Positions 1-38,163 of a stretch of 38,163 nucleotides of DNA are shown here, one piece after another. Origin of the DNA: a virus; the IMG/VR virus record IMGVR_UViG_3300045988_182321, positions 1-38,163 of that record; one strand, given 5' to 3'. Each line of letters opens with the position of its first letter. Position 1 is the stretch's first letter. The notes under the pieces are model-generated. The model made no database searches, was not told the DNA's origin, and saw only the letters and a list, made by a program, of their open reading frames with translations. The position numbers and the translations under genes were made by a program.

Positions 1-75
1 AGTTGCGTTGATTATAGAGTTTAAGGAGTAAAAAATGCGACAATTAACTGAAATAAAAAATTTGTCAAAAAAAAC
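1..75. repeat. Left copy of exact 75-bp terminal duplication
   Basis: Identical base for base to 38089-38163. Confidence 0.97.
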
Positions 76-238: not shown

Positions 239-262
239 TTTTCCGTTTTGAGGAGTAAAAAA

Positions 263-1297
263 ATGAAAACATACAGATTAACCGAAAAAGACATTGAAAA
301 TAAGCCTGTACTTGCGGTCGGATATAAGGCATTTGCACCCAAGTGGGAAACAAAGCATGGTGATTATTGCTATGCCGATGAAACAGGCAATGTATTGAAC
401 ACAATACACACTGTTGACGGGGATATTGCGGAATGTTGTTGGGGGTTGCATTTTTCTAAAAAGCCACAAGATTGCTTTAATTTTTACGAAAGCGTACAGT
501 GGAATAATTTTGCGAAAGTGGAAGCGTATGACGCATGCCTCGATAGCAGAAAGAAAAGCGTAGCAAAAACTTTGAAAATTGTTAAAATATATACTTTTGA
601 CGAATTTATCCGTCTTATTCAAGAAGATTTACAAGGCGACGGCGTGAATTGCAGTTTTGGCGTGAATGAGAGCAACGGTGTGCATGGTAGCAACGGCGTG
701 AGTTACAGCAACGGCGTGAATTGCAGTTTTAGCGTAAATGAGAGCAACGGTGTGAATCGGAGCAACGGTGTGAATCGGAGCAACGGCGTGAATTGCAGCA
801 ACGGTGTGCATGTCAGCAACGGTGTGCATGTCAGCAACGGTGTGAATCGGAGCAACGGTGTGAATCGGAGCAACGGCGTGAGTTACAGCGACGGCGTGAA
901 TTGCAGCAACGGTGTGCATGGTAGCAACGGCGTGAGTTACAGCAACGGCGTGAATTGCAGTTTTGGCGTAACAAAATGCAAAGCCGTTTCCCGGTGCATT
1001 TTTTGTCAAAATCAAGAGGGAGCAAGGCTTAAATTGTTTAATAAAAGAACAACAAGGGCAAGGTATGAAGCGGTTTTGTGCAAGATATTATCGTTCGATT
1101 GGTATCCGAAATTTAATAATGCCGAAGAGTTAAAAGGTTACCTTGAATGGTATGAAACGAACATTCCTGCAATAGTACGAGTGCCGAACGAAGTCGCATG
1201 GTCGTTTATGCCGAAAGAAATGAAAGAATATTTGCAATCGTTACCTGAATACGACGAAGCAGTATTCAAGAAAGTTACGGGAAAGATTGATGAGTAA
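263..1297 (+). CDS. Repeat protein: conserved N-terminal module (GYKAF...CxWGLHF), 18 tandem hexapeptides (G-V-x-x-S-N), C-terminal domain
   Basis: ATG 263 with GAGGAG at 250-255 (the track ORF starts at upstream TTG 248). I recall the N-terminal motif as a DUF7666-type phage module; this is unverified. The hexapeptide array is encoded by the 18-bp DNA repeat. Confidence 0.75.
   Translation: MKTYRLTEKDIENKPVLAVGYKAFAPKWETKHGDYCYADETGNVLNTIHTVDGDIAECCWGLHFSKKPQDCFNFYESVQWNNFAKVEAYDACLDSRKKSVAKTLKIVKIYTFDEFIRLIQEDLQGDGVNCSFGVNESNGVHGSNGVSYSNGVNCSFSVNESNGVNRSNGVNRSNGVNCSNGVHVSNGVHVSNGVNRSNGVNRSNGVSYSDGVNCSNGVHGSNGVSYSNGVNCSFGVTKCKAVSRCIFCQNQEGARLKLFNKRTTRARYEAVLCKILSFDWYPKFNNAEELKGYLEWYETNIPAIVRVPNEVAWSFMPKEMKEYLQSLPEYDEAVFKKVTGKIDE
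641..964 (+). repeat. 18 tandem copies of an 18-bp unit (consensus ggYgtgaatNNNagcaac), in frame
   Basis: Read directly. Units encode GVNCSF, GVNESN, GVHGSN, GVSYSN, GVNRSN, GVHVSN and similar variants; several adjacent units are identical. Confidence 0.95.
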
Positions 1298-1514
1298 GCG
1301 ATACATATACAAGGTCGTCGTAAAAAACGGCGATAAAGTGAGAACGGTTTTGTCTGTTCGGGCAATAGCGGATATACGGGCGGTCAAACGTTGGTATTAT
1401 CAGAAATACCAGCAAAAGGACGGCGACTTGTTCGTGATTTGCTCGGACGAAGAGGCTGTGTGGGAGGCAATGAGAGAGGCGCATGAAAATAAACAAAGTT
1501 CATTGCATGTTTGA
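1290..1514 (+). CDS. Hypothetical protein (74 aa)
   Basis: ATG overlaps the end of the upstream gene (coupled). No motif recognised. Confidence 0.5.
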   Translation: MSKRYIYKVVVKNGDKVRTVLSVRAIADIRAVKRWYYQKYQQKDGDLFVICSDEEAVWEAMREAHENKQSSLHV

Positions 1515-2157
1515 ACAGTCCGGGACATTTAAGCGGGCATTCCAAAAGCAAGGCATTACGGCTTTTGACTACGATATTCGTAATGATTTTGATGAAACGG
1601 ACAATGTGGTTGATTTGTTTCGTGAAATCGAAAGAGCGTATGCGGGGGAGCAATCCGTGTTCAATGAAATCGGAAGTGATGATTTGATAATCGCATTTTT
1701 CCCTTGCGTAAGATTTGAAGAGCAAATACAATTGGCTTTTCGTGGAACTCAATACCAGTTGAAAAACAAAAACGACGAGGAAAAGTTAGAATATGACTTG
1801 CGACTACATCGCCAATTAGCCGATTTTTATGAAAAAGTGACTAAATTAGTAATTGTATGTTTACGCAAAAAGTTAAGACTTATCATTGAAAATCCGTATT
1901 CATCAACACATTATTTGACCAAATATTGGGCGTTAAAGCCGAAGATTATCGACAAAGACCGCAGAAAGAATGGCGACTACTACACAAAACCTACGCAATA
2001 TTGGTTTGCAAATTGTGAACCAAACGCCGAGCCTTTGTTTGAAGCCCCGGTATGGCGAGCCGAAAGAAAAACCATTGCGCACGTGAGAAATCAGGTCGCG
2101 AGGTCGCTTATATCTAACGAATACGCTGAACGATTTATAAAGGAGTATATTCTATGA
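1483..2157 (+). CDS. C5-cytosine-methyltransferase-like catalytic core without an obvious target-recognition domain (224 aa)
   Basis: Motif I-like FEQSGTF (aa 10-16), motif IV-like FFPCVRF (PC at aa 74-75) and motif VI-like IIENP (aa 134-138), in canonical order and spacing. The protein ends about 55 aa after the motif VIII region. Confidence 0.5.
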   Translation: MKINKVHCMFEQSGTFKRAFQKQGITAFDYDIRNDFDETDNVVDLFREIERAYAGEQSVFNEIGSDDLIIAFFPCVRFEEQIQLAFRGTQYQLKNKNDEEKLEYDLRLHRQLADFYEKVTKLVIVCLRKKLRLIIENPYSSTHYLTKYWALKPKIIDKDRRKNGDYYTKPTQYWFANCEPNAEPLFEAPVWRAERKTIAHVRNQVARSLISNEYAERFIKEYIL

Positions 2158-3164
2158 ATAACCAGCGAACCAAAGAAGATTTGAGGGAATTGCAGGCGTT
2201 ACCGCTTGACTTAAAAATTCTCAAAACCAAAAATCGCATAAAAGAGTTCGTTAATTATTATGGCGGCATTGATTATTGCAGAGTTTCCACGAGCGGCGGT
2301 AAAGACAGTACGGTGCTATGGTATATCGTCAAAGAGTTATATCCCGAAGCGAAAGGCGTGTTTTGCGACACAGGACTTGAATATCCCGAAATACGGCAGT
2401 TTGTTAAAACATTAGGCGATATTGAGTTTGTTCGACCGAAAATGAGGTTTGACGAGGTTATAAAAACATACGGTTATCCCGTTATCGGCAAAGAAGTGGC
2501 GGACTGCGTTTACTGGGCGAAAAGAGGAAATCAAAGCAGAATTGAACGCTTGAACGGAACGTGGCGGGATAAGAACGGCGAACTGTCTATGTACAATGTT
2601 CCGAAGTACAAACCGTTGCTTGACGTTGATTTCAATATCAGCGGGAGGTGTTGCGGAATTATGAAAGAACAGTCCGTGTATCAACTTCATAAAGCAACAA
2701 TAACGGCTGTAATGGCAGAAGAAAGTCGTATGCGGTTGTCGGCGTGGCTGAAAACAGGTTGTAACGCTTTTAAGAAAAATAAGTCAAACCCGATGTCGTT
2801 TTGGACAAATCAAGACGTTTTGCAATTCTTAAAAAGTCGCAATATCCCGATAGCAAGCGTTTACGGCGACATTGTGTATAAAGGCGATGACGGGATGTTG
2901 TACGAAAACAGCATATGCGGAGGCAATCTCTGCACGACGGGCTGTCAACGCACAGGTTGTATGTTCTGCGCGTTCGGAGTGCATTTGGAAGAAGAGAGCC
3001 GTTTCGTACGCTTAAAGCAAACACACCCAAAGCATTACAAATACTGTATGGACGGTGGAGAGTATGTAGACGGGATATGGCAACCGAACAGCAAGGGCTT
3101 AGGTATGGCGCACGTATTAGACACGTTAAACCGCCTTTACGGGGAAGATTTTATTAAATATTGA
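2154..3164 (+). CDS. PP-loop ATP pyrophosphatase, PAPS-reductase-like family protein with C-terminal Cys cluster (336 aa)
   Basis: SGGKDS PP-loop at aa 47-52. CC dipeptide at aa 166-167. C-x4-C-x3-C-x4-C-x2-C at aa 255-272. ATGA overlap with the upstream ORF. Confidence 0.75.
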   Translation: MNNQRTKEDLRELQALPLDLKILKTKNRIKEFVNYYGGIDYCRVSTSGGKDSTVLWYIVKELYPEAKGVFCDTGLEYPEIRQFVKTLGDIEFVRPKMRFDEVIKTYGYPVIGKEVADCVYWAKRGNQSRIERLNGTWRDKNGELSMYNVPKYKPLLDVDFNISGRCCGIMKEQSVYQLHKATITAVMAEESRMRLSAWLKTGCNAFKKNKSNPMSFWTNQDVLQFLKSRNIPIASVYGDIVYKGDDGMLYENSICGGNLCTTGCQRTGCMFCAFGVHLEEESRFVRLKQTHPKHYKYCMDGGEYVDGIWQPNSKGLGMAHVLDTLNRLYGEDFIKY

Positions 3165-3173
3165 GGTGATAAA

Positions 3174-3749
3174 ATGAAAAGAGTAGCAATTACAGACATA
3201 GCGTTCGCAACGCTTATAGACGGAGTTAAGAACAGTTTGAGCAAAGACATGTATCGTCTTGATTTGTCTTGCATAAAACTTGTGGTAAAAAAGGACGAAA
3301 TCACGGCGTATTCGTGCGACGGATATTCGGCGGCAAAAGTCACCGTCCCGAACTTAAACCCGATAGACGAAGAATTTGAGTGCTTAATAAAGCCGATAGC
3401 GGTTAAGCCAAGTAAAGGTCGTCCGCAGGATATCATCGTGGAAGTAGTAGACGGCGATACATATGTGGAAGTGCCTGTTGAGTATGGAAAGCTAAAATAT
3501 TGCTTCACGCCGCCAAATGACAATTTTGTGAATATTGAAAAGATAATCGAAAGCACCGATAAAAACGACACGTATACTATCCACGTTCAGCCCGCTTTGC
3601 TTATAAAGGCGTTAAAAGCGGCACAAAAGACGAACAAGTATGTGAAAGTACAATTCGGGGATAAACTATCACCGTTTATTATCAAGGCAAAATGTGGCGA
3701 AACGAACAATTGGCAAATAGTGTTGCCGGCAAGAGGAGAGAAAGAATGA
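3174..3749 (+). CDS. Hypothetical protein, possibly a beta-sliding-clamp-like (DnaN-like) fold, 191 aa
   Basis: GAGGTG SD. Weak by-eye resemblance to DnaN segments (LSCIKLVVKKDEITAYSCDG; C-terminal WQIVLPAR). About half the size of DnaN. Confidence 0.3.
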   Translation: MKRVAITDIAFATLIDGVKNSLSKDMYRLDLSCIKLVVKKDEITAYSCDGYSAAKVTVPNLNPIDEEFECLIKPIAVKPSKGRPQDIIVEVVDGDTYVEVPVEYGKLKYCFTPPNDNFVNIEKIIESTDKNDTYTIHVQPALLIKALKAAQKTNKYVKVQFGDKLSPFIIKAKCGETNNWQIVLPARGEKE

Positions 3750-3991
3750 AACTACATAATCTTAAAATTAAGGCAGAATATGCGAGTGCAAAACTTCGAG
3801 GAGATAAACCTTTTGAAATACGATTAAATGACCGTGATTTCCAAGTCGGCGATATAGTGAATTACACTTGTATCGACAGTTCAATTTTTAATGAAAAAAT
3901 ATCGAAGAAGTTGTATTACATTACCTATATAACAAACTTCGAGCAGAAAGACGGGTATGTCGTGTTTGGAGATAGAGAGGTGGGAAAATGA
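3746..3991 (+). CDS. DUF3850-type ASCH/PUA-like domain protein (81 aa)
   Basis: HNLKIKAEYASAKLRGDKPFEIRLNDRDFQVGD matches the remembered DUF3850 signature (H-x-LK...F-E-x-R-x-NDR-x-F-x-x-GD). ATGA overlap with the upstream ORF. Confidence 0.7.
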   Translation: MKLHNLKIKAEYASAKLRGDKPFEIRLNDRDFQVGDIVNYTCIDSSIFNEKISKKLYYITYITNFEQKDGYVVFGDREVGK

Positions 3992-5740: not shown

Positions 5741-5999
5741 AAACAACAAAGATTGTTATTATAAGCAAAAAACAGCCGATTTACTGCAAGAAGTGGATAT
5801 TACACGCTCGGAAGTCGAATTTCAACAAAGGCGATACGCGCGGTTAAAGAAAGCGTTACACACGAAAAACAAGAACGAGCGAATCGCCGGCGCGAGAAAG
5901 TTCGCGGACAGGCTCTGCTACGAGGTTGAAAACGATGTCGTTGCCGAGTACATTATGCAGGTTTTCTATAAATGGCTTAAAGAGGTCGAAAATGAATAA
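5727..5999 (+). CDS. Hypothetical protein (90 aa)
   Basis: GGAGGA SD at 5713-5718. Overlaps the upstream stop. Confidence 0.6.
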   Translation: MQICENNKDCYYKQKTADLLQEVDITRSEVEFQQRRYARLKKALHTKNKNERIAGARKFADRLCYEVENDVVAEYIMQVFYKWLKEVENE

Positions 6000-6177
6000 G
6001 CCGCATAGAAAAACGAGTTTCCGAAATTGCAACGAATGTACTTATCGATTGACAATACAATGCTTCAATTCGATAAGTGGCGGTACGTGTTATGAGGGAC
6101 ACAAACAATACAGCCGCATAAAAATGACGGCGGACGAATTAAAACGTTTACGGGAGGCGTTAAATGGACAACGGTAG
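5992..6177 (+). CDS. Hypothetical Cys-containing small protein (61 aa)
   Basis: Internal ATG of track ORF 5926-6177, chosen because it overlaps the upstream stop (ATGAATAA) and follows AGAGG. Confidence 0.45.
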   Translation: MNKPHRKTSFRNCNECTYRLTIQCFNSISGGTCYEGHKQYSRIKMTADELKRLREALNGQR

Positions 6178-6568
6178 AAGAAGAGAGCTTGAAAGGGCGT
6201 TCTATGATTATCAAAAAAACCGTATGGAAGCGGCGGAGTACATATCGGACTTATGCTCGACCAAATCCCCGGTGTTGGAGAATTTAGGTCACGGAAGCGG
6301 CATAAGCGACCCGACGGCGCTATCGGGAGTTAAGCTTGCCGAGTACAAAAAATACCTGTGGTGTGAAGTGGTTGAAAAGACCTGCACGACGTTTCGCTTC
6401 GAGTACGAATATAAACTCATCAAACTGCGATATTTCAATCACATATCCCGAAACAGCGTCATAAGTTACCTTAACGTGTCAGAGCGAACGTATTGCTATT
6501 GGCTTGACAGAGTTCTTATAACGGCGGAGCGTTGGGCGTACGAGTTGGGAGTGATTAAAGATGAATAG
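6164..6568 (+). CDS. Late-gene transcriptional activator, RinA/ArpU-like (134 aa)
   Basis: Size, position upstream of the packaging genes, and layout (N-terminal LERAFYDY, central SDPT, C-terminal HTH-like ISRNSVISYLNVSERTYCYWLDRV) resemble staphylococcal RinA-type regulators. Confidence 0.6.
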   Translation: MDNGRRRELERAFYDYQKNRMEAAEYISDLCSTKSPVLENLGHGSGISDPTALSGVKLAEYKKYLWCEVVEKTCTTFRFEYEYKLIKLRYFNHISRNSVISYLNVSERTYCYWLDRVLITAERWAYELGVIKDE

Positions 6569-6752
6569 TTCTATGTGGGAAGAATTTCTCAAAAAATATC
6601 AGCCCCTTTCACGAGAAGAATATCTACTCATTTCACGAGAAACGCGTAAAAATTGGGAAAGAGAATCAAAGGAAAGGGGAGATGTGTACATAAAGATAAC
6701 TTTACCGAAGCAGACGAACAAAAGGGAAGAAAAAACCTCGAAACCGCCTTAA
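6561..6752 (+). CDS. Hypothetical basic protein (63 aa)
   Basis: GGGAG SD. Overlaps the upstream gene end. Confidence 0.55.
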   Translation: MNSSMWEEFLKKYQPLSREEYLLISRETRKNWERESKERGDVYIKITLPKQTNKREEKTSKPP

Positions 6753-7955: not shown

Positions 7956-8105
7956 ATGAAAACATACTATGTATACGATTTTCAGACGGATGAGTTTCTT
8001 TGCGAGGTGCGTGCTTGGTCGGTGGTAGACGCCGAAATAAGAGCGTGCAAACAATTAAACAAAGGAAGCGACGATGTTTATGCGTTCACGGAGAAATTAG
8101 ACTAA
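7956..8105 (+). CDS. Hypothetical small protein (49 aa; below the ORF-track cutoff)
   Basis: AAGGAGAAAAAGGGA then ATG. Translated by hand as MKTYYVYDFQTDEFLCEVRAW...TEKLD. Followed by a terminator. Confidence 0.5.
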   Translation: MKTYYVYDFQTDEFLCEVRAWSVVDAEIRACKQLNKGSDDVYAFTEKLD

Positions 8106-9413: not shown

Positions 9414-9734
9414 ATGGTAACAAATTTAACACGCGAAGATATGGAATGCATGATGAGTGCAAACCCGAGTATGCGAGAGCCGGAAGAAGAGTTAAAGGAG
9501 AAAGTCTATCCAAATACAGCGAAAGAGCGCGTAGAGCAAGAGTTAGACGAGTTACACGAAAAGATACTTAAATTGACTTGCTTTCTATACGGCAGAAAGA
9601 TACCGGAACGCGTCGTAACGCCTGAAATGCGAGAACTTATGAAACAACAGCTCAAACATATGCAAGCGTATGCAGGAACGCTTCAAGACCGTTTAATTAT
9701 ATGGGATTTATACAAGAACGAAGATAAGGAGTGA
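9414..9734 (+). CDS. Hypothetical helical protein (106 aa)
   Basis: AAGGAG SD. Confidence 0.65.
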   Translation: MVTNLTREDMECMMSANPSMREPEEELKEKVYPNTAKERVEQELDELHEKILKLTCFLYGRKIPERVVTPEMRELMKQQLKHMQAYAGTLQDRLIIWDLYKNEDKE

Positions 9735-31411: not shown

Positions 31412-32650
31412 TCAGCCCTCAAAGCGTTTAAGTTTTACAAAATAATCAGTAAAAGGCGATTTTTCGCGTTTCATAAAATGCGTATAAACGTCTTTTGTCA
31501 TCGATAAAGTAGCGTGACCGAGCCATTTTTTGGTTAAAAGGTCGTCAATTTGTGTTAAATGGCACATTGTGGCAAAAGTATGGCGCGTAGAATGAACGGA
31601 AACGTCGGTAAAGCCTAATTTTACAAAAGTTCTGCCGAAAGCGAGTTTAACAGCGTTGTAGGTATAATTCTCCGAAACGCAGTAGTCGAGTTCTTCTCGT
31701 AAACTCTCGTCATAATTGATAAAACGTTGTGACGTGCGGTTTTTCGTGTCGTGTTCAATAATACCGTCGCGGTTCATCATCTTATTGACCCGTATTTCGT
31801 CATCACCTATATCGTCGGGCGTGAGAGCCAAAAATTCACTTATGCGCATACCCGTACAGCAAAGGACGGTAAAGAGCCGACTATACTTTTCGGGTAAAGC
31901 CGTAAGGATAGCCGTTTGTTCTTCCGCAGTAAAAGCGCGTTTATGCTCCGACTTAACTTTCGGGCGTTTCAAGAGTTCGCAAGGGTTTTTGCGTATTTTC
32001 TCCGAAATGACCGCTTGACGAAGAGCGGAATTAATAACGTCGAATACTTTGCGCCGTGAGTTTTCGCCGTTTATAGATATAAAGAATTGTTGCAGAATAT
32101 CGGGCGTAAGTTGTTCCATAGGCGTTGCGATTGTCTTTATCTTATTAAATGCGTCCATATAACCTCTTTTCGAGTTCGAGCGTAAGTACGGTTCTTTATA
32201 TGTTTCGTACCAATAATTAACCCATTCGATAAAAGACGAGCCTTTCTTTGTGACGCGTTCCGTTTTTTCCTTTTCTTTTAAAGGGATATTCTTTAATTTT
32301 TCAATAACCTCCTTTTGAGTTTTAGCCGTTACCGTGTGGCGTTGGAATCTACCCTCCCACCACGTGTAGCGGCTATTTTTGTTTTTCCGGGAACGTTTCC
32401 GAATAGACCCCGCCCCGAAAGGCAGATAAACAGACATTTTTTCCTCCGCCTGAATATCCGATAACAACCTGAAATTAACGTCAGGATAAGGGGACGGCTT
32501 TCCGCCCTCACTTACAATACGAAAAGGCGATTTGCGCGTAATCGGTTCATTTGCGAAATCGTCGTTTCCTATTATTTTGCCGCACAATAACGAGGCTTTT
32601 TGTAAAGCCTCCGCTAAAAGGTCGAGCAATCTCCTTGTATCATCTTCCAC
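31412..32650 (-). CDS. int: Tyrosine recombinase / phage integrase (412 aa from GTG; alternative ATG at 32437 gives 341 aa)
   Basis: HSTRHTFAT (H-x-x-R) and LGHATLSMTKDVYTH (catalytic Tyr) near the C-terminus. Arm-binding-like GSIRKRS...YTWWEGRF. Adjacent to attP. Confidence 0.9.
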   Translation of the reverse strand: MEDDTRRLLDLLAEALQKASLLCGKIIGNDDFANEPITRKSPFRIVSEGGKPSPYPDVNFRLLSDIQAEEKMSVYLPFGAGSIRKRSRKNKNSRYTWWEGRFQRHTVTAKTQKEVIEKLKNIPLKEKEKTERVTKKGSSFIEWVNYWYETYKEPYLRSNSKRGYMDAFNKIKTIATPMEQLTPDILQQFFISINGENSRRKVFDVINSALRQAVISEKIRKNPCELLKRPKVKSEHKRAFTAEEQTAILTALPEKYSRLFTVLCCTGMRISEFLALTPDDIGDDEIRVNKMMNRDGIIEHDTKNRTSQRFINYDESLREELDYCVSENYTYNAVKLAFGRTFVKLGFTDVSVHSTRHTFATMCHLTQIDDLLTKKWLGHATLSMTKDVYTHFMKREKSPFTDYFVKLKRFEG

Positions 32651-32674: not shown

Positions 32675-33025
32675 TTAACCTACATTGCTTTGGGAATTTT
32701 TGAGAAACGCTTCGGCATAGCCGAGAACTTTTCCTTGCTGTACTGCTGTCAGTTGCCTGAACAGAGCGAGCATTTCTATCTCTTGCGATGTTAAGTTACT
32801 TGATTGTGTACGAGTCGCTTTCGGAGCAGGCTCCGTGTAAAAATAATTCTCGGGCAAATCAAACGCTTCGGAAATTCTTGCAAGCGTGCGCCGAGAGGGG
32901 GCGGCTTTCCCTGTTTTCCAACTTTGTATAGAACCATTGGAAATTCCCACTTTAATCTCAAAGTTTCGAGCGTTAAGCCCTTTTTTCTCCATTAACTCAT
33001 AAATTTTATTCAAAATAATATCCAT
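32675..33025 (-). CDS. CI-like repressor, XRE-family HTH, no S24 peptidase domain (116 aa)
   Basis: KKGLNARNFEIKVGISNGSIQSWKTGKAAPS HTH. Divergent from the Cro-like gene and upstream of int. Confidence 0.8.
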   Translation of the reverse strand: MDIILNKIYELMEKKGLNARNFEIKVGISNGSIQSWKTGKAAPSRRTLARISEAFDLPENYFYTEPAPKATRTQSSNLTSQEIEMLALFRQLTAVQQGKVLGYAEAFLKNSQSNVG

Positions 33026-34163: not shown

Positions 34164-34331
34164 ATGTACATGGTAGTAATAAGACATGGGAAAGCATGCA
34201 ACGCTTACATAAAATTCGACGAAAAAACGGCGTTGGCTAAAATGAGGGAAATCGCCCTGACGAGGAACTTCGACAAAATCGTGTGTGTAAAAATGGAGGG
34301 GAGCAACATATGCGTAAACTCTTTGAGATAA
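34164..34331 (+). CDS. Hypothetical small protein (55 aa; below the track cutoff)
   Basis: AAGGAGAG SD 8 nt upstream. Translated by hand as MYMVVIRHGKACNAYIKFDEK... Confidence 0.4.
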   Translation: MYMVVIRHGKACNAYIKFDEKTALAKMREIALTRNFDKIVCVKMEGSNICVNSLR

Positions 34332-34819
34332 ACAGCGATATTGAAAAGTTGCTTGATAAAAACGCCGTCATCGTAATGGGCGAGAATGGCGTAGATACGG
34401 AAACGGGCGAGGTGTTCAACCTTGCGGAAAGACTGAACGCTTTGACGGTTGAGAAGAACGAGAAAATCAAAAGCGTTGTCGTGTATCTCGACGACCTGAA
34501 CGGCAAACTTGCAAGCATACGAGAGAAACTCGACAACTACAACAAAATCAAAAAGTCGCTCGAAAGAGAGATTACGGGCTTAACCGATTATCTTCTGTTT
34601 GCGACGGACAAGCAGGGTTTCAAAGACGACGAAATCGAAATGAAAGTCAAAAAGACTATGCGGTGCGTGCTTACGGACGAAACGCTTATCCCCGAACAAT
34701 TCATTAAGACAAAAACGGAAACGAGCATTTCCAAAACGGATATCACGAAAGCGATAAAAGCGGGCGAAACCGTACCGGGCGCAGAAATGCAAGCGAACTA
34801 CTCCGTGCAGATACTGTGA
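34310..34819 (+). CDS. Siphovirus Gp157-like protein (169 aa)
   Basis: MRKLFEINSDIEKLLDKN start, helical, about 160 aa, directly upstream of an annealase as is usual for Gp157-family genes. GGAGGGGAG SD. Confidence 0.55.
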   Translation: MRKLFEINSDIEKLLDKNAVIVMGENGVDTETGEVFNLAERLNALTVEKNEKIKSVVVYLDDLNGKLASIREKLDNYNKIKKSLEREITGLTDYLLFATDKQGFKDDEIEMKVKKTMRCVLTDETLIPEQFIKTKTETSISKTDITKAIKAGETVPGAEMQANYSVQIL

Positions 34820-34827
34820 GGTGACCT

Positions 34828-35472
34828 ATGGATAACTTGGAATTATACAAGAGTTGGGCAGAAGTCCCGAAAGAGGCACAAAAACCGTTCGATAACGGCA
34901 CTTTCAAAGGAACCGACATCAATACCATGTGGCGCATAAAAGTGCTTACGGAAAGGTTCGGAGCGTGCGGCGTAGGCTGGTACTACAATATCAAACGCGT
35001 ATGGAGCGAGAACCTCGGCGACCAATGCGGCGAAATCTTATCGTATGCGGAAATCGAACTTTTCATTAAACACGACGGAGAGTGGAGCAAACCTATCGCA
35101 GGTATCGGCGGCAATAAAATGCTGAAATACGTTCGTAAGAGCGAAGATTTCCGACCGAGCGACGAAGCGTACAAAATGGCAGTAACCGACGCTTTCGGAA
35201 ACGCTTGCAGAAATCTCGGAATCGGCGCAAATACGTATTGGGAGAACGACAAGACCAAATACACGGAAGAGCCGAAGAAAAGCAAAGAAGAGCTAATAAA
35301 AGACGACCGGGCAAAACTGATTGAGGCTAATAAGCCGCAGGATATGACGGTAGCGGAGTTAAAAGCACTTGCTGCCGAACATAACTGTCTTAAACTATCG
35401 GCGGCGGACGAAGCGGACTTCAAGGCGTTTATCAAGGAGTTGAAAGAATGGAAATCATCGACGGAAGAGTAA
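34828..35472 (+). CDS. Rad52-family single-strand annealing protein (Sak-like) (214 aa)
   Basis: WRIKVLTERFGACGVGWYY and SDEAYKMAVTDAFGNACRNLGIGANTYW resemble the Rad52/Sak conserved blocks. Confidence 0.65.
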   Translation: MDNLELYKSWAEVPKEAQKPFDNGTFKGTDINTMWRIKVLTERFGACGVGWYYNIKRVWSENLGDQCGEILSYAEIELFIKHDGEWSKPIAGIGGNKMLKYVRKSEDFRPSDEAYKMAVTDAFGNACRNLGIGANTYWENDKTKYTEEPKKSKEELIKDDRAKLIEANKPQDMTVAELKALAAEHNCLKLSAADEADFKAFIKELKEWKSSTEE

Positions 35473-36113
35473 AGGACTACGACGAGCGCGGAATACTCAC
35501 GGTCGTTGCAGATTACCCGAACGCCGAGCGGTTCATAAATCGCGACTTCAAAACGTGCCGAATTGTCTTAAACGATAGTCGGGAAATATCCGCCGAGCAG
35601 AGAAAAAAGGCATACGCGCTATTAAACGAAATATCCGAGTATATGGGCGAAATGCCCGAATACACGAAGAGATTGTTCAAACTTAAATTCATACACGACA
35701 CGATGAAAGGGCTTGCAGACGGCATATTTTCGCTTTCTGACTGCGACGTGACTACGGCAAAGGAATTTATCACCTATTTGATTGACTTCATAATAGCGCA
35801 CGAAATTCCGACGAGAGTGCCGCTTGCAGAACTGTGCGAAGATGTCCAAAAATACGTTTATGCTTGCGCAATGCAAAAAGTCTGTTGCGTATGCGGCAGG
35901 AAAGCCGACTTGCACCACTACGACGCTATCGGAAGCAAGTACGACCGAAGCAAAGCAGTGCATGAGGGTTTGCGAGCATTGCCGCTATGCCGTGAACATC
36001 ACACCGAAGCGCACAACGTCACAAAAGAAGTGTTTTTGAAAAAATACCATATCGAGCCGATTGTGCTTGATAAAAAACTGTGTAAAAAATGGAGGCTACC
36101 GTATGAATCTTAA
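35448..36113 (+). CDS. Putative HNH-type nuclease (HNHc_6-like) (221 aa)
   Basis: C-terminal CCVCGRKADLHHYDAIG...LPLCREHHTEAHN zinc/HNH-like motif. Confidence 0.6.
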   Translation: MEIIDGRVKDYDERGILTVVADYPNAERFINRDFKTCRIVLNDSREISAEQRKKAYALLNEISEYMGEMPEYTKRLFKLKFIHDTMKGLADGIFSLSDCDVTTAKEFITYLIDFIIAHEIPTRVPLAELCEDVQKYVYACAMQKVCCVCGRKADLHHYDAIGSKYDRSKAVHEGLRALPLCREHHTEAHNVTKEVFLKKYHIEPIVLDKKLCKKWRLPYES

Positions 36114-36621
36114 AGAATTGAGGAACAGCGTCGGCGTACGACAAAGCGAACTCGTAGCCGCGCTGAACAAAGAGGGACTGAAAGCAACCAAAGCGGACAT
36201 CTCCCGAATAGAGAACGGCATAATCGAAACGTACCTGTTTTTAGCGTTCAGAGCCGAGGAACTGCTCAAACGTAAAAGTGTACTCCCGAAAGCGAAAAAC
36301 GCAACAGAGGCGAAATTTGGAAGTTGCAACCGCATTACCGAGCGAGTTATGGAACGTATAGAGCAAAACGGCTTTACGAACTACGAAGATTTGGCGATGA
36401 CGCTTATGACGAGCAACAAGCGCGAAATACGAGCGGCTGTAATGGAAACACGTTGCACTTATCCGATAATCGACCGTGAGGGCGGCGGTTGGGCGTTGGC
36501 AACGACGATAGCCGACTGCGACAAACAGATTGGCATTTACGAGAAAAAGAAGCGCGTGTATTCGTATCAGGAAACGCCGCTTATTGCTAAAAAGTACGAA
36601 CTGCAAAAGGAGAGAGGTTAA
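36103..36621 (+). CDS. HTH DNA-binding protein with C-terminal domain (172 aa)
   Basis: GGAGG SD then ATG 36103. LKELRNSVGVRQSELVAALNKEGLKATKADISRIENG. Confidence 0.6.
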   Translation: MNLKELRNSVGVRQSELVAALNKEGLKATKADISRIENGIIETYLFLAFRAEELLKRKSVLPKAKNATEAKFGSCNRITERVMERIEQNGFTNYEDLAMTLMTSNKREIRAAVMETRCTYPIIDREGGGWALATTIADCDKQIGIYEKKKRVYSYQETPLIAKKYELQKERG

Positions 36622-37358
36622 TGGAAGATTTACAGCAAAGTTTTTATGCGGTGATACCTGCGGACGTGAGATACGACGCGCGGCTTACGGCAAACTCGAA
36701 ACTGCTCTACGGTGAGATAACCGCCCTCTGCAATATGCACGGTTTTTGCTGGGCTAAAAACGAGTATTTCGCCAAGCTTTACGGCACTTCCGAACGCAGT
36801 ATTCAACGCTGGATTGACACTCTCGTTTCGTGCGGTTACATCATCAAAAACTATCTTCACGACGAGCGCGGTTCTTCCTCGGAAAGGTGCATTTCGATAC
36901 AAACGTATCGATTGTCACCCGGTGACAAAAATGTCGTTTACCCCACGACAAAAATGTCGCCCCTTAATAAGGATGAATATTTTAAATATTATAATAATAC
37001 CCCCAAAAGCCCCCAAAGGGGGATTTCGAGTGAGAGAACATCTTTTTCAATCGATGATTACGAGTTATCCGAGGCTATGAAAAGCAAGGTCAGCGAGTGG
37101 GTCGAGTACAAGAAAGAACAGCACAAATTCAAGTATTCGGAGCAAGGCTTCAAGTCGTTTATAAAACAACTTCAAAACTACATAGAAAGTTGCGGAGAAA
37201 ACAACGTCATAAAGGCGATAGACGAAGCAATGGCTAACGGATATAAAGGCGTTGTGTGGGACGTCCTGAAACGCAAGAAAAAGGACAAGCCCGAAAAGAG
37301 TTACACAAGCGAGCAACTCAACGGAATGTTCAATAATCTTGATTACGAGGACTTGTGA
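36621..37358 (+). CDS. Replication initiator-like winged-HTH protein (245 aa)
   Basis: N-terminal LTANSKLLYGEITALCN...NEYFAKLYGTSERSIQRWIDTLVSCGYI resembles the HTH_36 / DnaD-type phage initiator N-terminus. An internal ori-like repeat cluster is present. Confidence 0.55.
   Translation: MEDLQQSFYAVIPADVRYDARLTANSKLLYGEITALCNMHGFCWAKNEYFAKLYGTSERSIQRWIDTLVSCGYIIKNYLHDERGSSSERCISIQTYRLSPGDKNVVYPTTKMSPLNKDEYFKYYNNTPKSPQRGISSERTSFSIDDYELSEAMKSKVSEWVEYKKEQHKFKYSEQGFKSFIKQLQNYIESCGENNVIKAIDEAMANGYKGVVWDVLKRKKKDKPEKSYTSEQLNGMFNNLDYEDL
36912..37022. promoter_or_regulatory. Candidate replication origin inside the initiator gene
   Basis: 17-bp palindrome TTGTCACCcGGTGACAA (36912-36928). Two copies of GACAAAAATGTCG (36924-36936, 36947-36959). 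AT-rich run at about 36968-36999. CCCCC-aaa-GGGGG (37010-37022). Confidence 0.5.
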
Positions 37359-37360
37359 TT

Positions 37361-37474
37361 ATGGAAGAATTAGCGTTCGTGTTGTTCTCCGAGGCGTTCA
37401 TCTTAACGCTTTACGGGATATGGAAAGCAGGCGAAAAAATAACGAATAAAATCGAGGAGAGAAAAAGAAAATGA
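37361..37474 (+). CDS. Possible 37-aa single-TM peptide
   Basis: GAGGAC 8 nt upstream. MEELAFVLFSEAFILTLYGIWKAGEK... Stop overlaps the ssb ATG (ATGA). Confidence 0.35.
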   Translation: MEELAFVLFSEAFILTLYGIWKAGEKITNKIEERKRK

Positions 37475-37896
37475 ACAAATGCGTTTTTATCGGGAATTTA
37501 ACCAAAGACCCCGAGGGCGGCTCGACTACAAGCGGGATATCGTATTCGCGCTTCACTATTGCGGTCAATCGCAGATATACCGATTCCAACGGCGACAGAA
37601 TAACGGATTTTATTCCGGTAACGGCGTGGCGAGGACTTGCCGACAACTGCAACAAATACCTTGTCAAAGGCAACAAAATAGCCGTCGAGGGTCAATTAAA
37701 CGTTTCGACTTACGAAAACGACAAAGGCGAAAGGCGAACAAAGTTTGACATATCCGCCGATACGGTCGAGTTCTTATCTCCGAGAAACGAGGATAAACAG
37801 CCTGCGGAAGATAAGCCTACTGCGACGGTTGCGGATAAGAGCGAAAACAAAAAGTTTACCGACCTGAAAGAAGCCGAGGATGATTTTCCGTTTTGA
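37471..37896 (+). CDS. ssb: Single-stranded DNA-binding protein (141 aa)
   Basis: OB-fold signature (VFIGNLTKDPE, RFTIAVNR, FIPVTAWRGLAD, KGNKIAVEGQL) and acidic C-terminal tip EDDFPF. Confidence 0.93.
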   Translation: MNKCVFIGNLTKDPEGGSTTSGISYSRFTIAVNRRYTDSNGDRITDFIPVTAWRGLADNCNKYLVKGNKIAVEGQLNVSTYENDKGERRTKFDISADTVEFLSPRNEDKQPAEDKPTATVADKSENKKFTDLKEAEDDFPF

Positions 37897-37905
37897 GGTA
37901 ATGTC

Positions 37906-38112
37906 ATGAGAATGCCATATTTGATAAGAACAGACCCGAAAGACCCGCGTGGTGAGCGTATGCAAATAATAATACTTGAAGAATCTACACCGGCACCTAA
38001 ACGCTATTTGCCTGAACGCTACTGCTTGTGTGACGGGTGCAAAAATTCTGATGGTTGCAATTGGAAACCGCTAAAACCACCATATACGAGTTGCGTTGAT
38101 TATAGAGTTTAA
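37906..38112 (+). CDS. Hypothetical Cys-containing protein (68 aa); runs into the terminal duplication
   Basis: GAGGT SD. The last 24 nt are also present at 1-24. Confidence 0.55.
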   Translation: MRMPYLIRTDPKDPRGERMQIIILEESTPAPKRYLPERYCLCDGCKNSDGCNWKPLKPPYTSCVDYRV

Positions 38113-38163
38113 GGAGTAAAAAATGCGACAATTAACTGAAATAAAAAATTTGTCAAAAAAAAC
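38089..38163. repeat. Right copy of exact 75-bp terminal duplication
   Basis: Identical to 1-75. Confidence 0.97.

What the first reader, a model, noticed from the sequence alone, without database searches (positions are those of the whole stretch)
1483..3164. Coupled TRD-less C5-methyltransferase-like ORF plus PP-loop/PAPS-reductase-like Cys-cluster protein: candidate nucleic-acid modification pair
- The 224-aa ORF has look-alikes of C5-MTase motifs I, IV (Pro-Cys) and VI (ENx) at canonical spacing. It stops too early to hold a normal target-recognition domain.
- It overlaps (ATGA) a 336-aa protein with an SGGKDS PP-loop, a CC dipeptide and a five-Cys cluster.
- PAPS-reductase-fold PP-loop proteins act in DNA phosphorothioation (DndC) and occur in type 4 BREX, but stand-alone phage versions have no assigned chemistry.
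- A covalent-Cys pyrimidine-C5 enzyme coupled to an adenylating enzyme could plausibly make a base hypermodification rather than simple 5mC.
Basis: partly seen in the sequence, partly recalled or inferred. Interest (0 to 1): 0.65.

Follow-up and report, generated by a model that had tools for sequence, protein, structure and literature searches.

The report
Two unlinked phage DNA-modification-type accessory genes
A small cytosine-methyltransferase-like gene and a "PAPS reductase"-type iron-sulfur ATPase gene sit side by side in this temperate gut phage, but sister phages carry either one without the other, so they are two independent accessory genes and not a coupled base-hypermodification pathway.

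Summary
ORF-A (1483-2157, 224 aa) and ORF-B (2154-3164, 336 aa) are real, conserved genes that overlap by ATGA. ORF-A is a distant, miniaturised C5-methyltransferase-like protein (PHROG 757). It keeps motif I, Pro-Cys, Glu-Asn-Pro, a conserved Arg and motif IX, but has no target-recognition domain and no motif X. ORF-B is a phage "PAPS reductase" (PF01507, PHROG 424). It has a canonical SGGKDS PP-loop and the CC...CxxC iron-sulfur signature, but lacks the ECGLH motif of true sulfonucleotide reductases.

Near-identical sister phages (90-97% nt, same flanks) carry B without A (L163, L246) or A with B deleted in frame (L243). B lies within 6 kb of A in only 10 of 162 ORF-A loci, and A appears in 0 of 80 ORF-B loci. 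Neighbours of both genes vary and are drawn from a methylase/anti-defence hot spot.

The most likely reading is two independent counter-defence cargo genes:
- ORF-A: an orphan DNA C5-methyltransferase of unknown, possibly relaxed, specificity.
- ORF-B: a DndC/SspD-like adenylating sulfur-transfer enzyme, possibly aimed at phosphorothioate-based defences.

The residual interest is that the widespread TRD-less C5-MTase-like family has, as far as I could find, not been characterised biochemically.

The parts
1483..2157 (+). ORF-A, 224 aa: stand-alone minimal C5-methyltransferase-like protein (PHROG 757). No TRD and no motif X.
   Evidence: There is no Pfam, NCBIfam or PDB sequence hit.
1510..1530 (+). 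Motif I-like FEQSGTF, the putative cofactor loop. It aligns to FAGLGGF of M.HhaI.
   Evidence: E11 is invariant; F10, Q12, S13, G14 and F16 are at least 90% conserved in 60 diverse members.
1702..1707 (+). Motif IV Pro-Cys (P74-C75), the putative catalytic nucleophile.
   Evidence: P74 is invariant and C75 is at least 90% conserved. The family consensus FFPCTYFS compares with GFPCQAFS in M.HhaI.
1888..1896 (+). Motif VI-like Glu-Asn-Pro (E136-N137-P138).
   Evidence: N137 is invariant.
2101..2127 (+). Motif IX-like RSLISNEYA (R-x-L-x-x-x-E-x-A, as in RKLHPRECA of M.HhaI). The protein ends 9 residues later.
   Evidence: The pattern comparison with M.HhaI is my own reading; that sequence was verified.
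2154..2157 (+). ATGA stop/start overlap between ORF-A and ORF-B.
   Evidence: In sister phage L163 the ORF-B start codon sits directly at the same junction without ORF-A.
2154..3164 (+). ORF-B, 336 aa: phage 'PAPS reductase'-family PP-loop ATP-pyrophosphatase-type protein with iron-sulfur-type cysteines (PF01507, PHROG 424).
2292..2309 (+). PP-loop SGGKDS.
   Evidence: present in 30/31 family members.
2649..2654 (+). Cys166-Cys167. They align with the CC pair of M. tuberculosis APS reductase.
   Evidence: alignment to 7lhr; 31/31 conserved.
2916..2969 (+). Cys-rich stretch C255-C272, including the invariant C269-x-x-C272.
1287..1514 (+). Upstream 75-aa ORF. It is the conserved left flank of the cassette slot and overlaps the start of ORF-A.
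3174..3749 (+). Downstream 191-aa ORF with weak sliding-clamp-like similarity. It is the conserved right flank of the slot.

Best explanation
These are two independently assorting accessory genes. They lie in the variable methylase/anti-defence slot between the replication module and the packaging module of a circular, roughly 38-kb temperate phage. Relatives of ORF-A occur in gut and rumen anaerobes, mainly Clostridia and Bacilli.

ORF-A is a miniaturised member of the C5-methyltransferase lineage. It keeps the cofactor loop, an acidic residue at the end of strand 2, the Pro-Cys nucleophile, Glu-Asn-Pro, a conserved Arg and motif IX. I infer that it is an active orphan enzyme that attacks C6 of cytosine in DNA and transfers a methyl group from SAM, protecting phage DNA from host restriction. 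Because it has no TRD, its sequence specificity is probably short or relaxed.

ORF-B is a PP-loop ATP pyrophosphatase with a CC...CxxC [4Fe-4S]-type site. It is mechanistically of the DndC/SspD/BrxP/TtuA kind (adenylate a substrate, then transfer sulfur) and is not a sulfonucleotide reductase. I infer that it works on its own with host factors as a counter-defence enzyme. The one tested precedent is a Vibrio-phage locus whose two specific genes include a PAPS-Dam fusion and which overcomes host Dnd.

The ATGA overlap is ordinary tight operon packing at a cassette junction and is not evidence of a shared pathway.

Shown here: gene reality, family membership, motif conservation, folds, and independent assortment. 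Inferred: substrates, chemistry and biological role.
For: Independence
- L163 and L246 (93-97% nt identity over the aligned flanks) lack window 1477-2163 precisely, and ORF-B starts at the same junction.
- L243 (89-96% nt identity) keeps ORF-A but has window 2192-3125 deleted in frame, leaving a 24-codon remnant.
- L244 and L245 carry an 88%-identical ORF-A in a podovirus-like context.
- HMM co-occurrence is 8/82, 0/80 and 2/80.
- No neighbour family dominates: at most 8/80 next to A and 6/77 next to B.
- Bacteroides phages B40-8 and C3_41T2LP have A without an adjacent B. phiCP34O and Tyrion have B with no methylase annotated in the stretch shown.

Hot spot
- The immediate neighbours include N6_N4, C5 and MT-A70 methylases, Tad3, Mom, RusA and YopX.
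- L163 has an MT-A70 methylase just upstream of the slot.

ORF-A is C5-MTase-like
-. The AF2 model has pLDDT 82 and the expected alternating strand-helix order.
- Canonical C5-MTases are absent from ORF-A loci (0/80 and 1/80) but present in 24/77 ORF-B loci, Fisher p 4e-9. This fits ORF-A filling the C5-MTase niche.

ORF-B
- (SGGKDS in 30/31; C166, C167, C269, C272 in 31/31; ECG[LI]H in 0/31).

Literature
- An anti-Dnd phage locus encoding a PAPS-Dam fusion: bioRxiv 10.1101/2021.05.05.442762, cited as Piel 2022 in PMC13551039.
- PAPS-domain proteins make phosphorothioate only together with an NTPase partner: PMC12914056.
Against: - No biochemical data exist for either family member, so the substrates (DNA, RNA or nucleotide) are inferred.
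- ORF-A matches no Pfam or NCBIfam C5-MTase model. Its link to C5-MTases is modest: P about 1e-4, and Foldseek against PDB gives only E 8.6e-3 to 0.04.
- Motif X contributes to SAM binding in M.HhaI (Asn304; PMC12783734), and it is missing here. SAM use is therefore not assured.
- ORF-B has no NTPase partner of the DndD/SspC/BrxC type nearby, so it probably cannot make phosphorothioate by itself.
- ORF-B genes lie near canonical C5-MTases in 31% of loci. Some facultative methylase-PAPS cooperation therefore cannot be excluded.
- The locus sets are the best 80 hits of larger hit lists and are not corrected for phylogeny.
Confidence: 0.68

Rival explanations
1. ORF-A and ORF-B form a two-step pathway: covalent C5 chemistry by A, then adenylation-dependent elaboration by B. 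The product would be a hypermodified pyrimidine in phage DNA, analogous to CmoX plus CmoY.
For: - The genes are adjacent with an ATGA overlap.
- A published pathway pairs a C5-MTase homologue with an AMP-forming ligase (PMC12783734).
- A few other loci have a PAPS-like gene within 0.2-0.6 kb downstream of an ORF-A homologue: L031-L033, L253, L266.
Against: - Sister phages keep one gene without the other as intact ORFs.
- Co-occurrence is 10/162 and 0/80.
- ORF-A has FFPC rather than SPPC and has no motif X, hence no equivalent of CmoX R350.
- No CmoA-like gene was found among the early ORFs scanned.
- ORF-B's Fe-S signature points to sulfur chemistry, not amide ligation.
Confidence: 0.05
2. 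Loose methylase-PAPS synergy. ORF-B-type proteins cooperate facultatively with whichever DNA methyltransferase is encoded nearby (C5, N6 or ORF-A type), as in the Vibrio-phage PAPS-Dam fusion. In this phage ORF-A would be the methylase partner.
For: - 24/77 ORF-B loci carry a canonical C5-MTase, 7 of them directly adjacent and 15 within two genes.
- Methylases are the most common Pfam class among ORF-B's immediate neighbours, about 15 of 150.
- A PAPS-Dam fusion lies in an anti-Dnd locus (10.1101/2021.05.05.442762).
- The sister phages have an MT-A70 methylase near ORF-B.
Against: - 53/77 ORF-B loci have no C5-MTase within 6 kb.
- Cultured phages phiCP34O and Tyrion have no methylase annotated in the stretch around ORF-B.
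- ORF-A's own neighbours are also enriched in N6_N4 methylases (8/150), so a shared insertion hot spot explains the pattern without any functional link.
Confidence: 0.14
3. RNA-directed enzymes. ORF-A would be a DNMT2-like tRNA m5C methyltransferase, ORF-B a TtcA/TtuA-like tRNA thiolase, or both. They would modify host or phage tRNA, for example to resist anticodon nucleases.
For: - ORF-A lacks a DNA-reading TRD.
- ORF-B's fold also matches the Fe-S tRNA sulfurtransferase TtuA at E about 2e-4.
- DNMT2 uses the DNA-MTase mechanism on tRNA (established knowledge).
Against: - The genomic company is DNA methylases and DNA-directed anti-defence genes.
- ORF-A is mutually exclusive with canonical DNA C5-MTases.
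- The best fold matches for ORF-B are APS/PAPS reductases, and its PADLOC hits are SspD and BrxP.
Confidence: 0.07
4. ORF-B is an auxiliary metabolic gene: a true CysH-type PAPS/APS reductase that boosts host sulfate assimilation.
For: - Pfam PF01507 hit and routine database annotation.
- Top fold matches are CysH and APS reductases.
- This reading is proposed for Bifidobacterium prophages (10.64898/2026.02.18.706556).
Against: - The C-terminal catalytic ECG[LI]H motif is absent in 31/31 members.
- The PP-loop is the canonical ATP-pyrophosphatase form SGGKDS, whereas CysH has a degenerate loop at that position (alignment to 6vpu).
- All curated CysH/APS NCBIfam scores are far below their cut-offs: 29.7 vs 154, and 21 vs 235.
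- There is an extra C-terminal Cys-rich domain.
Confidence: 0.03
5. ORF-A is a catalytically dead methyltransferase remnant acting as a decoy or inhibitor, for example of host methylation-dependent restriction.
For: - The TRD and motif X are lost.
- Among PDB fold hits is DNMT3B3, a chain of only 176 residues. That it is a truncated, inactive isoform is my own knowledge.
Against: The catalytic-type residues (E11, P74, C75, E136, N137, R160) are invariant or at least 90% conserved across members sharing only 32-54% identity. That pattern is expected for an active enzyme.
Confidence: 0.03

Closest known systems
DNA (cytosine-5)-methyltransferases (Pfam PF00145; M.HhaI as the structural reference)
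   Same: - Order and register of motif I, motif IV (Pro-Cys), motif VI (Glu-Asn-x), a conserved Arg in the motif VIII region, and motif IX (R-x-L-x3-E-x-A).
- Predicted alternating strand-helix core.
- Profile-profile P 9.4e-5.
   Different: - 224 aa against 327 or more.
- About 30 residues where the TRD should be, and no motif X.
- Motif I is E-Q-S-G-T rather than x-G-x-G-G.
- 23 extra residues between motifs IV and VI.
- No PF00145 hit for any of 60 diverse members.
PHROG 757 'DNA methyltransferase' (e.g. Bacteroides phage B40-8 gp19; similar-fold short proteins such as Lactococcus phage P087 'putative DNA methylase')
   Same: - Full-length match at E 4.6e-21.
- 40-44% identity to the Bacteroides phage proteins.
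- Same length class and same stand-alone architecture.
   Different: Nothing structural. The family name is an annotation only, and I found no paper testing its activity.
CmoX / CmoA / CmoY 5-carboxymethylcytosine hypermodification pathway (PMC12783734)
   Same: The concept is the same: a C5-MTase-fold enzyme plus an AMP-forming enzyme encoded together in a phage.
   Different: - CmoX is full length (372-residue chain 8yf3) with an SPPC motif and motif-X Arg350 that binds carboxy-SAM.
- It co-occurs with CmoA.
- CmoY is an amide ligase with no Fe-S site reported.
- None of these features is present here, and A and B are not co-conserved.
DndC / SspD / BrxP (PAPS-reductase-domain proteins of phosphorothioate systems)
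   Same: - Canonical PP-loop and Fe-S-type cysteines.
- PADLOC SspD at E 9e-11 and BrxP at E 1.5e-7 over the PP-loop region.
   Different: - The matches cover only about 60 residues, and no DndC model hit at E 0.01 or better.
- No DndD/SspC/BrxC NTPase, DndE, SspB or DUF4007 partner in the window or in related loci.
- ORF-B is a free-standing gene in phages.
Vibrio phage 44E38.1 p0018, a PAPS-domain plus Dam-methylase fusion in an anti-Dnd locus (bioRxiv 10.1101/2021.05.05.442762)
   Same: A phage PAPS-reductase-domain protein physically linked to a DNA methyltransferase in a variable anti-defence region.
   Different: - There the two are fused in one polypeptide, and the partner is an N6-adenine methylase.
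- Here they are separate genes, the partner is C5-like, and the linkage is not conserved.
- I did not compare the sequences directly.
Assimilatory APS/PAPS reductases (CysH; PDB 1sur, 2goy, 7lhr)
   Same: - Fold (Foldseek E 2.4e-6).
- The CC pair aligns with that of M. tuberculosis APS reductase.
   Different: - No ECG[LI]H catalytic motif.
- Intact ATP-type PP-loop.
- About 100 extra C-terminal residues with further conserved cysteines.
- Scores far below curated cut-offs.

Membership tests
DNA cytosine-5 methyltransferase (PF00145) | Scores above the curated family HMM threshold | tested here: not met
   No Pfam hit at E<=1 for ORF-A. 0 of 60 diverse relatives hit PF00145 at E<=0.1. No NCBIfam hit. 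No PDB sequence or profile hit to any C5-MTase.
DNA cytosine-5 methyltransferase (PF00145) | Motif IV Pro-Cys nucleophile and motif VI Glu-Asn-x | tested here: met
   P74 and N137 are invariant; C75 and E136 are at least 90% conserved. Pro-Cys aligns in register with M.HhaI PCQ.
DNA cytosine-5 methyltransferase (PF00145) | Motif I F-x-G-x-G cofactor loop | tested here: inconclusive
   FEQSGTF aligns with FAGLGGF, but only one Gly is kept. Cofactor binding was not tested.
DNA cytosine-5 methyltransferase (PF00145) | Target-recognition domain between motifs VIII and IX | tested here: not met
   Median of 30 residues between the PTxYW segment and RSL. That stretch has low pLDDT.
DNA cytosine-5 methyltransferase (PF00145) | Motif X (GNxV), part of the SAM pocket | tested here: not met
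   GN.[VI] found in the last 60 residues of only 1 of 60 members. ORF-A ends 9 residues after motif IX.
DNA cytosine-5 methyltransferase (PF00145) | SAM-dependent methylation of cytosine C5 in DNA | not testable with these tools
   Needs expression plus bisulfite/EM-seq, nanopore or LC-MS.
PHROG 757 (phage 'DNA methyltransferase') | Full-length match to the family profile | tested here: met
   E 4.6e-21, residues 2-220 on profile positions 13-216 of 247.
Split C5-methyltransferase (M.AquI type; recalled from memory) | A conserved adjacent gene supplying TRD plus motifs IX-X | tested here: not met
   The neighbours of ORF-A vary: the most frequent downstream family occurs in 7 of 80 loci. None of the 150 immediate neighbours hit PF00145 among the listed families.
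CmoX/CmoA/CmoY carboxymethylcytosine pathway | SPPC motif and motif-X Arg (R350) in the C5 enzyme | tested here: not met
   The motif is FFPC and motif X is absent. The criteria are from PMC12783734.
CmoX/CmoA/CmoY carboxymethylcytosine pathway | Co-encoded CmoA (Cx-SAM synthase) | tested here: not met
   No methyltransferase-fold Pfam hit among 17 early-region ORFs scanned. The late structural genes were not scanned.
PAPS_reduct superfamily (PF01507) / PHROG 424 | Above the curated threshold, with the matching fold | tested here: met
   PF01507 at 53.6 bits against a cut-off of 22.5. PHROG 424 at E 1.5e-38. Foldseek 1sur/2goy at E 2.4e-6.
CysH sulfonucleotide reductase | C-terminal ECG[LI]H catalytic cysteine, and score above the equivalog cut-off | tested here: not met
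   Motif present in 0 of 31 members. NF002537 scores 29.7 against 154; TIGR02055 scores 21 against 235.
DndC (Dnd phosphorothioation) | DndC profile match and dndD/dndE (plus dndA/iscS) partners in the locus | tested here: not met
   No PADLOC DndC hit at E<=0.01. No such partners appear among the neighbour families.
SspD / BrxP | Full-length profile match and SspB/SspC or BrxC/BrxZ/BrxL partners (DUF4007 in BrxP) | tested here: not met
   The hits cover residues 45-107 (SspD) and 28-86 (BrxP) only. No partners are present.
PP-loop ATP pyrophosphatase with [4Fe-4S] (mechanistic class) | SGGxDS loop plus conserved CC...CxxC cysteines | tested here: met
   SGGKDS in 30/31; C166, C167, C269 and C272 in 31/31. 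The CC pair aligns to APS reductase 7lhr. Cluster binding itself cannot be tested here.
Obligate two-gene system (A+B) | Co-conservation and conserved adjacency across relatives | tested here: not met
   8/82, 0/80 and 2/80. Sister phages are A-only or B-only.

The most novel reading that the evidence does not exclude
PHROG-757-type proteins such as ORF-A are a distinct, widespread clade of minimal C5-pyrimidine enzymes, with at least 802 clusters at 50% identity across gut and rumen Clostridia, Bacilli, Bacteroidales, spirochaetes and others. They would work without a TRD and without motif X. That implies one of three things: a non-specific or very short-motif DNA cytosine-C5 methyltransferase (a C5 counterpart of the non-specific adenine methylase M.EcoGII), an enzyme using a cofactor other than SAM, or one that reads DNA in a new way. 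They would take the place of canonical Dcm-type methylases in these phages (canonical C5-MTase in 1/160 ORF-A loci against 24/77 ORF-B loci).
Probability: 0.2. Interest if true: 0.6.

Novelty: new member of a known kind. Interest (0 to 1): 0.28.

Why it matters
The proposed hypermodification pair is not there, so it should not be followed up as a two-gene pathway. Two narrower points remain useful.

First, ORF-A belongs to a large family of TRD-less, motif-X-less C5-methyltransferase-like proteins. Pfam and NCBIfam have no model for it, and the papers I searched do not test it. Its specificity and cofactor are open questions, and a non-specific C5 methylase would be a useful reagent.

Second, the natural set of near-isogenic phages (A+B, A only, B only) is a ready-made experiment. 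It could show what each gene does to virion DNA and to host range. That includes the still-debated role of phage "PAPS reductases", which are often reported as sulfur-metabolism genes even though this one lacks the reductase catalytic motif.

Tried and rejected
- Sequence and profile searches of ORF-A against PDB found only chance-level hits.
- Pfam and NCBIfam gave nothing for ORF-A or for 60 diverse relatives.
- Foldseek against PDB gave only weak Rossmann/methyltransferase matches: KijD1 at 8.6e-3 and DNMT3B3 at 0.036. This does not establish a C5-MTase fold on its own.
- hhalign against the single M.HhaI sequence was weak, with probability 3-14%. It became informative only with a family profile and negative controls.
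- Longer relatives, including a 482-aa protein, showed no Pfam domain in their extra regions, so fusions gave no clue.
- A split-enzyme partner was looked for and not found.
- I tested whether B40-8 gp20, just downstream of the ORF-A homologue, is a PAPS reductase. It is not.
- Megablast of the first 25 kb of the window against cultured phages found no match.
- Literature searches for a characterised TRD-less phage C5-methylase found none.
- The AMG (CysH) reading of ORF-B was rejected on motif and score grounds.
- Model coordinates could not be read in the scripting environment, so active-site geometry was not inspected.


Full report
1. WHAT IS IN THE SEQUENCE

They share ATGA at 2154-2157. 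The quoted motifs translate as stated.
- ORF-A: FEQSGTF, Pro-Cys and Glu-Asn-Pro.
- ORF-B: SGGKDS, Cys-Cys and CGGNLCTTGCQRTGCMFC.

Both are real genes.
- ORF-A has 6,929 homologous 90%-identity clusters, almost all 213-249 aa, and 802 clusters at 50% identity.
- ORF-B saturated its search at 8,000 candidates, all listed ones carrying PF01507.
- Against sister phages, synonymous differences outnumber non-synonymous ones: 37 vs 26 codons for A, and 42 vs 7 for B.

The window itself is a complete circular assembly. Its first and last 75 bases are identical, and relatives read straight across the junction. It is a temperate phage, with the following genes:
- integrase at 31412-32650 (- strand) and repressor at 32675-33025 (- strand);
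- Gam, an exonuclease, a replication initiator and SSB at 34283-37896.

The two ORFs lie just after this replication module and before the packaging genes.

2. WHAT ORF-A IS

ORF-A has no Pfam, NCBIfam, PADLOC or PDB sequence match, either alone or as a profile. None of 60 diverse relatives hits PF00145. It does match PHROG 757, labelled "DNA methyltransferase", over its full length at E 4.6e-21. It is 40-44% identical to proteins of Bacteroides phages, one of which (B40-8 gp19) RefSeq calls "DNA methyltransferase".

Across relatives sharing only 32-54% identity with ORF-A:
- invariant positions are E11, F72, P74, F78, N137, R160 and S208;
- nearly invariant positions include F10, Q12, S13, G14, F16, D31, D40, D44, C75, E136, P138 and R207.

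The family consensus around the cysteine is FFPCTYFS. M.HhaI has GFPCQAFS; I verified that reference sequence against the PDB.

Profile-profile alignment against an M.HhaI-like family places motif I and Pro-Cys in register.
- P is 9.4e-5, and 4.1e-4 with a more diverse C5 profile.
- Nine unrelated families and a reversed C5 profile give P of 0.018-0.74.
- An N6/N4 methylase family gives 0.03, over its own SAM loop only.

The AF2 model (pLDDT 82) has the strand-helix order expected of the C5-MTase large domain.
- Foldseek against viral models finds short phage "DNA methylase" proteins of 200-250 aa at E 6e-8 to 6e-6, then genuine C5-MTases at 2e-4 to 1e-2.
- Foldseek against PDB is weak: KijD1 at 8.6e-3 and DNMT3B3 at 0.036.

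By my reading, RSLISNEYA follows the motif IX pattern R-x-L-x3-E-x-A, as in RKLHPRECA of M.HhaI.

What is missing is clear.
- Only about 30 poorly predicted residues separate the motif VIII-like segment from motif IX.
- The protein ends 9 residues after motif IX.
- 59 of 60 relatives lack a GNxV motif X.
- The gap from Pro-Cys to Glu-Asn-Pro is 62 residues against 39 in M.HhaI, so "canonical spacing" holds only for motifs I to IV.

ORF-A is therefore a distant, miniaturised relative of C5-methyltransferases. Its catalytic-type residues are under selection. It is not a member of PF00145 by that family's own criteria.

3. WHAT ORF-B IS

ORF-B passes the curated cut-off for PF01507 (53.6 bits against 22.5) and matches PHROG 424 at E 1.5e-38. 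The model (pLDDT 82.5) best matches PAPS and APS reductases (1sur and 2goy at E 2.4e-6). Next come the Fe-S tRNA sulfurtransferase TtuA, LarE and GMP synthetase.

Several features argue that it is not a sulfonucleotide reductase.
- SGGKDS is present in 30 of 31 relatives. C166, C167, C203, C269, C272 and C298 are present in all 31.
- The CC pair aligns with the CC of M. tuberculosis APS reductase. In that enzyme family CC...CxxC binds a [4Fe-4S] cluster (established knowledge).
- The ECG[LI]H catalytic motif of true reductases is absent from all 31 relatives.
- The CysH and APS equivalog scores are far below their cut-offs.
- CysH has a degenerate loop where ORF-B has the ATP-type PP-loop (alignment to 6vpu).

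PADLOC finds SspD (9e-11) and BrxP (1.5e-7) over the PP-loop region only, and no DndC.

ORF-B is therefore an adenylating enzyme, probably sulfur-transferring, of the DndC/SspD/TtuA mechanistic class. It belongs to the large phage family routinely annotated "PAPS reductase", for example in C. perfringens phages phiCP34O and phiCP13O and in Enterobacter phage Tyrion.

4. ARE THEY A PAIR?

This is the decisive test, and the answer is no. Three close relatives share the same flanking genes but differ at this slot.
- L163 (IMG/VR) and L246 (a 38,350-bp contig whose ORF-B is 98% identical in protein) jump from window 1476 to 2164. ORF-A is precisely absent, and the ORF-B start codon sits at the same ribosome-binding site.
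- L243 has an 88%-identical ORF-A but lacks window 2192-3125. This is an in-frame deletion that leaves a 24-codon remnant of ORF-B.
- The same ORF-A (88% identity) also occurs in a podovirus-like contig next to an encapsidation gene.

Family HMM searches agree.
- A PAPS-like gene lies within 6 kb in 8 of 82 viral ORF-A loci and 2 of 80 ORF-A loci from bacterial genomes.
- ORF-A occurs in 0 of 80 ORF-B loci.

Neither gene has a dominant neighbour: at most 8 of 80 loci for A and 6 of 77 for B. Cultured phages carry one gene without the other.

5. THE NEIGHBOURHOOD

The immediate neighbours of both genes come from a recurring set.
- This set includes N6/N4, C5 and MT-A70 methylases, RusA, YopX, DUF1064, Tad3 (anti-Thoeris), Mom-family proteins, and replication loaders.
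- In L163 an MT-A70 methylase sits just upstream of the slot.

This is a methylase/anti-defence cargo hot spot.

One asymmetry stands out. Canonical C5-methylases are in 24 of 77 ORF-B loci, 7 of them adjacent and 15 within two genes. They are in 0 of 80 viral and 1 of 80 genomic ORF-A loci (Fisher p 4e-9). I read the exclusion as support for ORF-A filling the C5-methylase role. The enrichment around ORF-B may be a hot-spot effect or a loose methylase-PAPS affinity. The data do not separate these.

6. MECHANISM

For ORF-A the residues needed for Michael addition at pyrimidine C6 and for protonation of the ring are conserved. The cofactor loop resembles both the C5 and the N6/N4 SAM loops. I infer an active SAM-dependent DNA cytosine-C5 methyltransferase that protects phage DNA. 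Its specificity is probably short or relaxed because there is no TRD. The loss of motix X leaves cofactor use uncertain. In M.HhaI, Asn304 of that motif lies at the cofactor site, and in CmoX an Arg at that position selects carboxy-SAM (PMC12783734).

For ORF-B I infer ATP-dependent adenylation followed by sulfur transfer from an Fe-S-bound or persulfide sulfur.
- In the known phosphorothioate systems a PAPS-domain protein needs an NTPase partner (PMC12914056). None is present here, so autonomous phosphorothioation is unlikely.
- The only functional precedent is a Vibrio phage locus. Its two specific genes, one of which encodes a PAPS-domain-Dam fusion, let the phage overcome host Dnd (bioRxiv 10.1101/2021.05.05.442762; cited in PMC13551039).

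7. COMPARISON WITH KNOWN SYSTEMS AND NOVELTY

CmoX (a C5-MTase homologue using carboxy-SAM) works with CmoA and the AMP-forming ligase CmoY to make 5-carboxymethylcytosine and its glycine amide (PMC12783734). This locus fails every defining feature of that system that I could test:
- it has FFPC, not SPPC;
- it has no motif-X arginine;
- no CmoA-like gene was found among 17 early ORFs scanned;
- the two genes are not co-conserved.

Both genes are new members of catalogued families (PHROG 757; PF01507 and PHROG 424). Neither family has, to my knowledge, been characterised biochemically. My searches found nothing for the short C5-like family. Papers still debate whether phage PAPS reductases are metabolic or DNA-directed (10.64898/2026.02.18.706556; PMC13551039).

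8. VERDICT

- The domain-level interpretation is right.
- The coupled-pair and hypermodification interpretation is not supported.
- Interest is low to moderate (0.28).

The remaining value lies in the uncharacterised TRD-less C5-MTase-like family and in the natural A+B / A-only / B-only phage set.

Noticed in passing
window 1-75 and 38089-38163: The first and last 75 bases are identical, and relatives (L243) read continuously across the window ends. The window is therefore a circular or circularly permuted complete phage genome of about 38,088 unique bases.
   Followed up: partly
window 248-1297 (+), repeats about 629-1015: A DUF7666 protein carries a long run of SNGV-type hexapeptide repeats. 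It hits collagen-like and tail-fibre PHROGs only through the repeats. The whole gene (window 253-1290) is absent from sister phages L163, L243 and L246, so it is another swappable cassette in the same slot.
   Followed up: partly
L243:2363-2444 (corresponds to window 2154-2191 joined to 3126-3164): In-frame deletion scar of ORF-B: a 24-codon remnant, MNNKRTKEDLREL|NRLYGKDFIKY, with 2-3 nt of microhomology at the junction. This indicates a recent loss of the PAPS-reductase gene in a phage that keeps ORF-A.
   Followed up: yes
L163:5252-5803; L246:6637-7185: The sister phages that lack ORF-A each carry an MT-A70-family N6-adenine methyltransferase near ORF-B. No MT-A70 hit appeared among the window ORFs I scanned, which suggests methylase swapping at this hot spot.
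   Followed up: partly
ORF-B loci L169-L241 compared with ORF-A loci L003-L082 and L247-L326: Canonical C5-methyltransferase genes lie within 6 kb of ORF-B homologues in 24/77 loci, 7 of them adjacent. They are almost never near ORF-A homologues (0/80 and 1/80; Fisher p 4e-9). This could mean mutual exclusion of ORF-A with canonical Dcm-type genes, a PAPS-methylase affinity, or both. It is unresolved.
   Followed up: partly
window 3174-3749 (+) and 3692-3991 (+): A 191-aa ORF has weak similarity to DNA polymerase III beta / sliding clamp (PHROG 947 at E 5.8e-5; the Pfam hits are below threshold), at about half the clamp length. It overlaps by 58 nt the start of a DUF3850/ASCH-like ORF, so one of the two starts is probably mis-set.
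   Followed up: no
immediate neighbours of ORF-A homologues among loci L001-L078 (alignment A6): Immediate neighbours of ORF-A homologues include one Tad3 (type I Thoeris inhibitor) gene and one Mom-family gene. This supports the view that the slot collects anti-defence genes.
   Followed up: no
L001 (Bacteroides phage B40-8) 5989-6702 and L002 (C3_41T2LP) 5989-6720: Annotation of the same family is inconsistent across deposited phage genomes: "DNA methyltransferase" in RefSeq B40-8 and UZM3, but "hypothetical protein" in nine of the twelve records listed. NCBI names a bacterial copy hypothetical.
   Followed up: no
L253:7103-8017 and L266:6861-7997: In two bacterial-genome contigs (a Christensenella MAG and a Lachnospiraceae MAG), a distant PAPS-reductase-like ORF (E 2e-7 and 2e-14 against the ORF-B family HMM) lies 0.2-0.4 kb downstream of an ORF-A homologue. 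This is a rare recurrence of the juxtaposition with a different PAPS subfamily.
   Followed up: no
window 9414-9734 (+): A small ORF matches the crAss001_48-related protein family (PF21825, E 7e-13), just upstream of the presumed terminase region.
   Followed up: no
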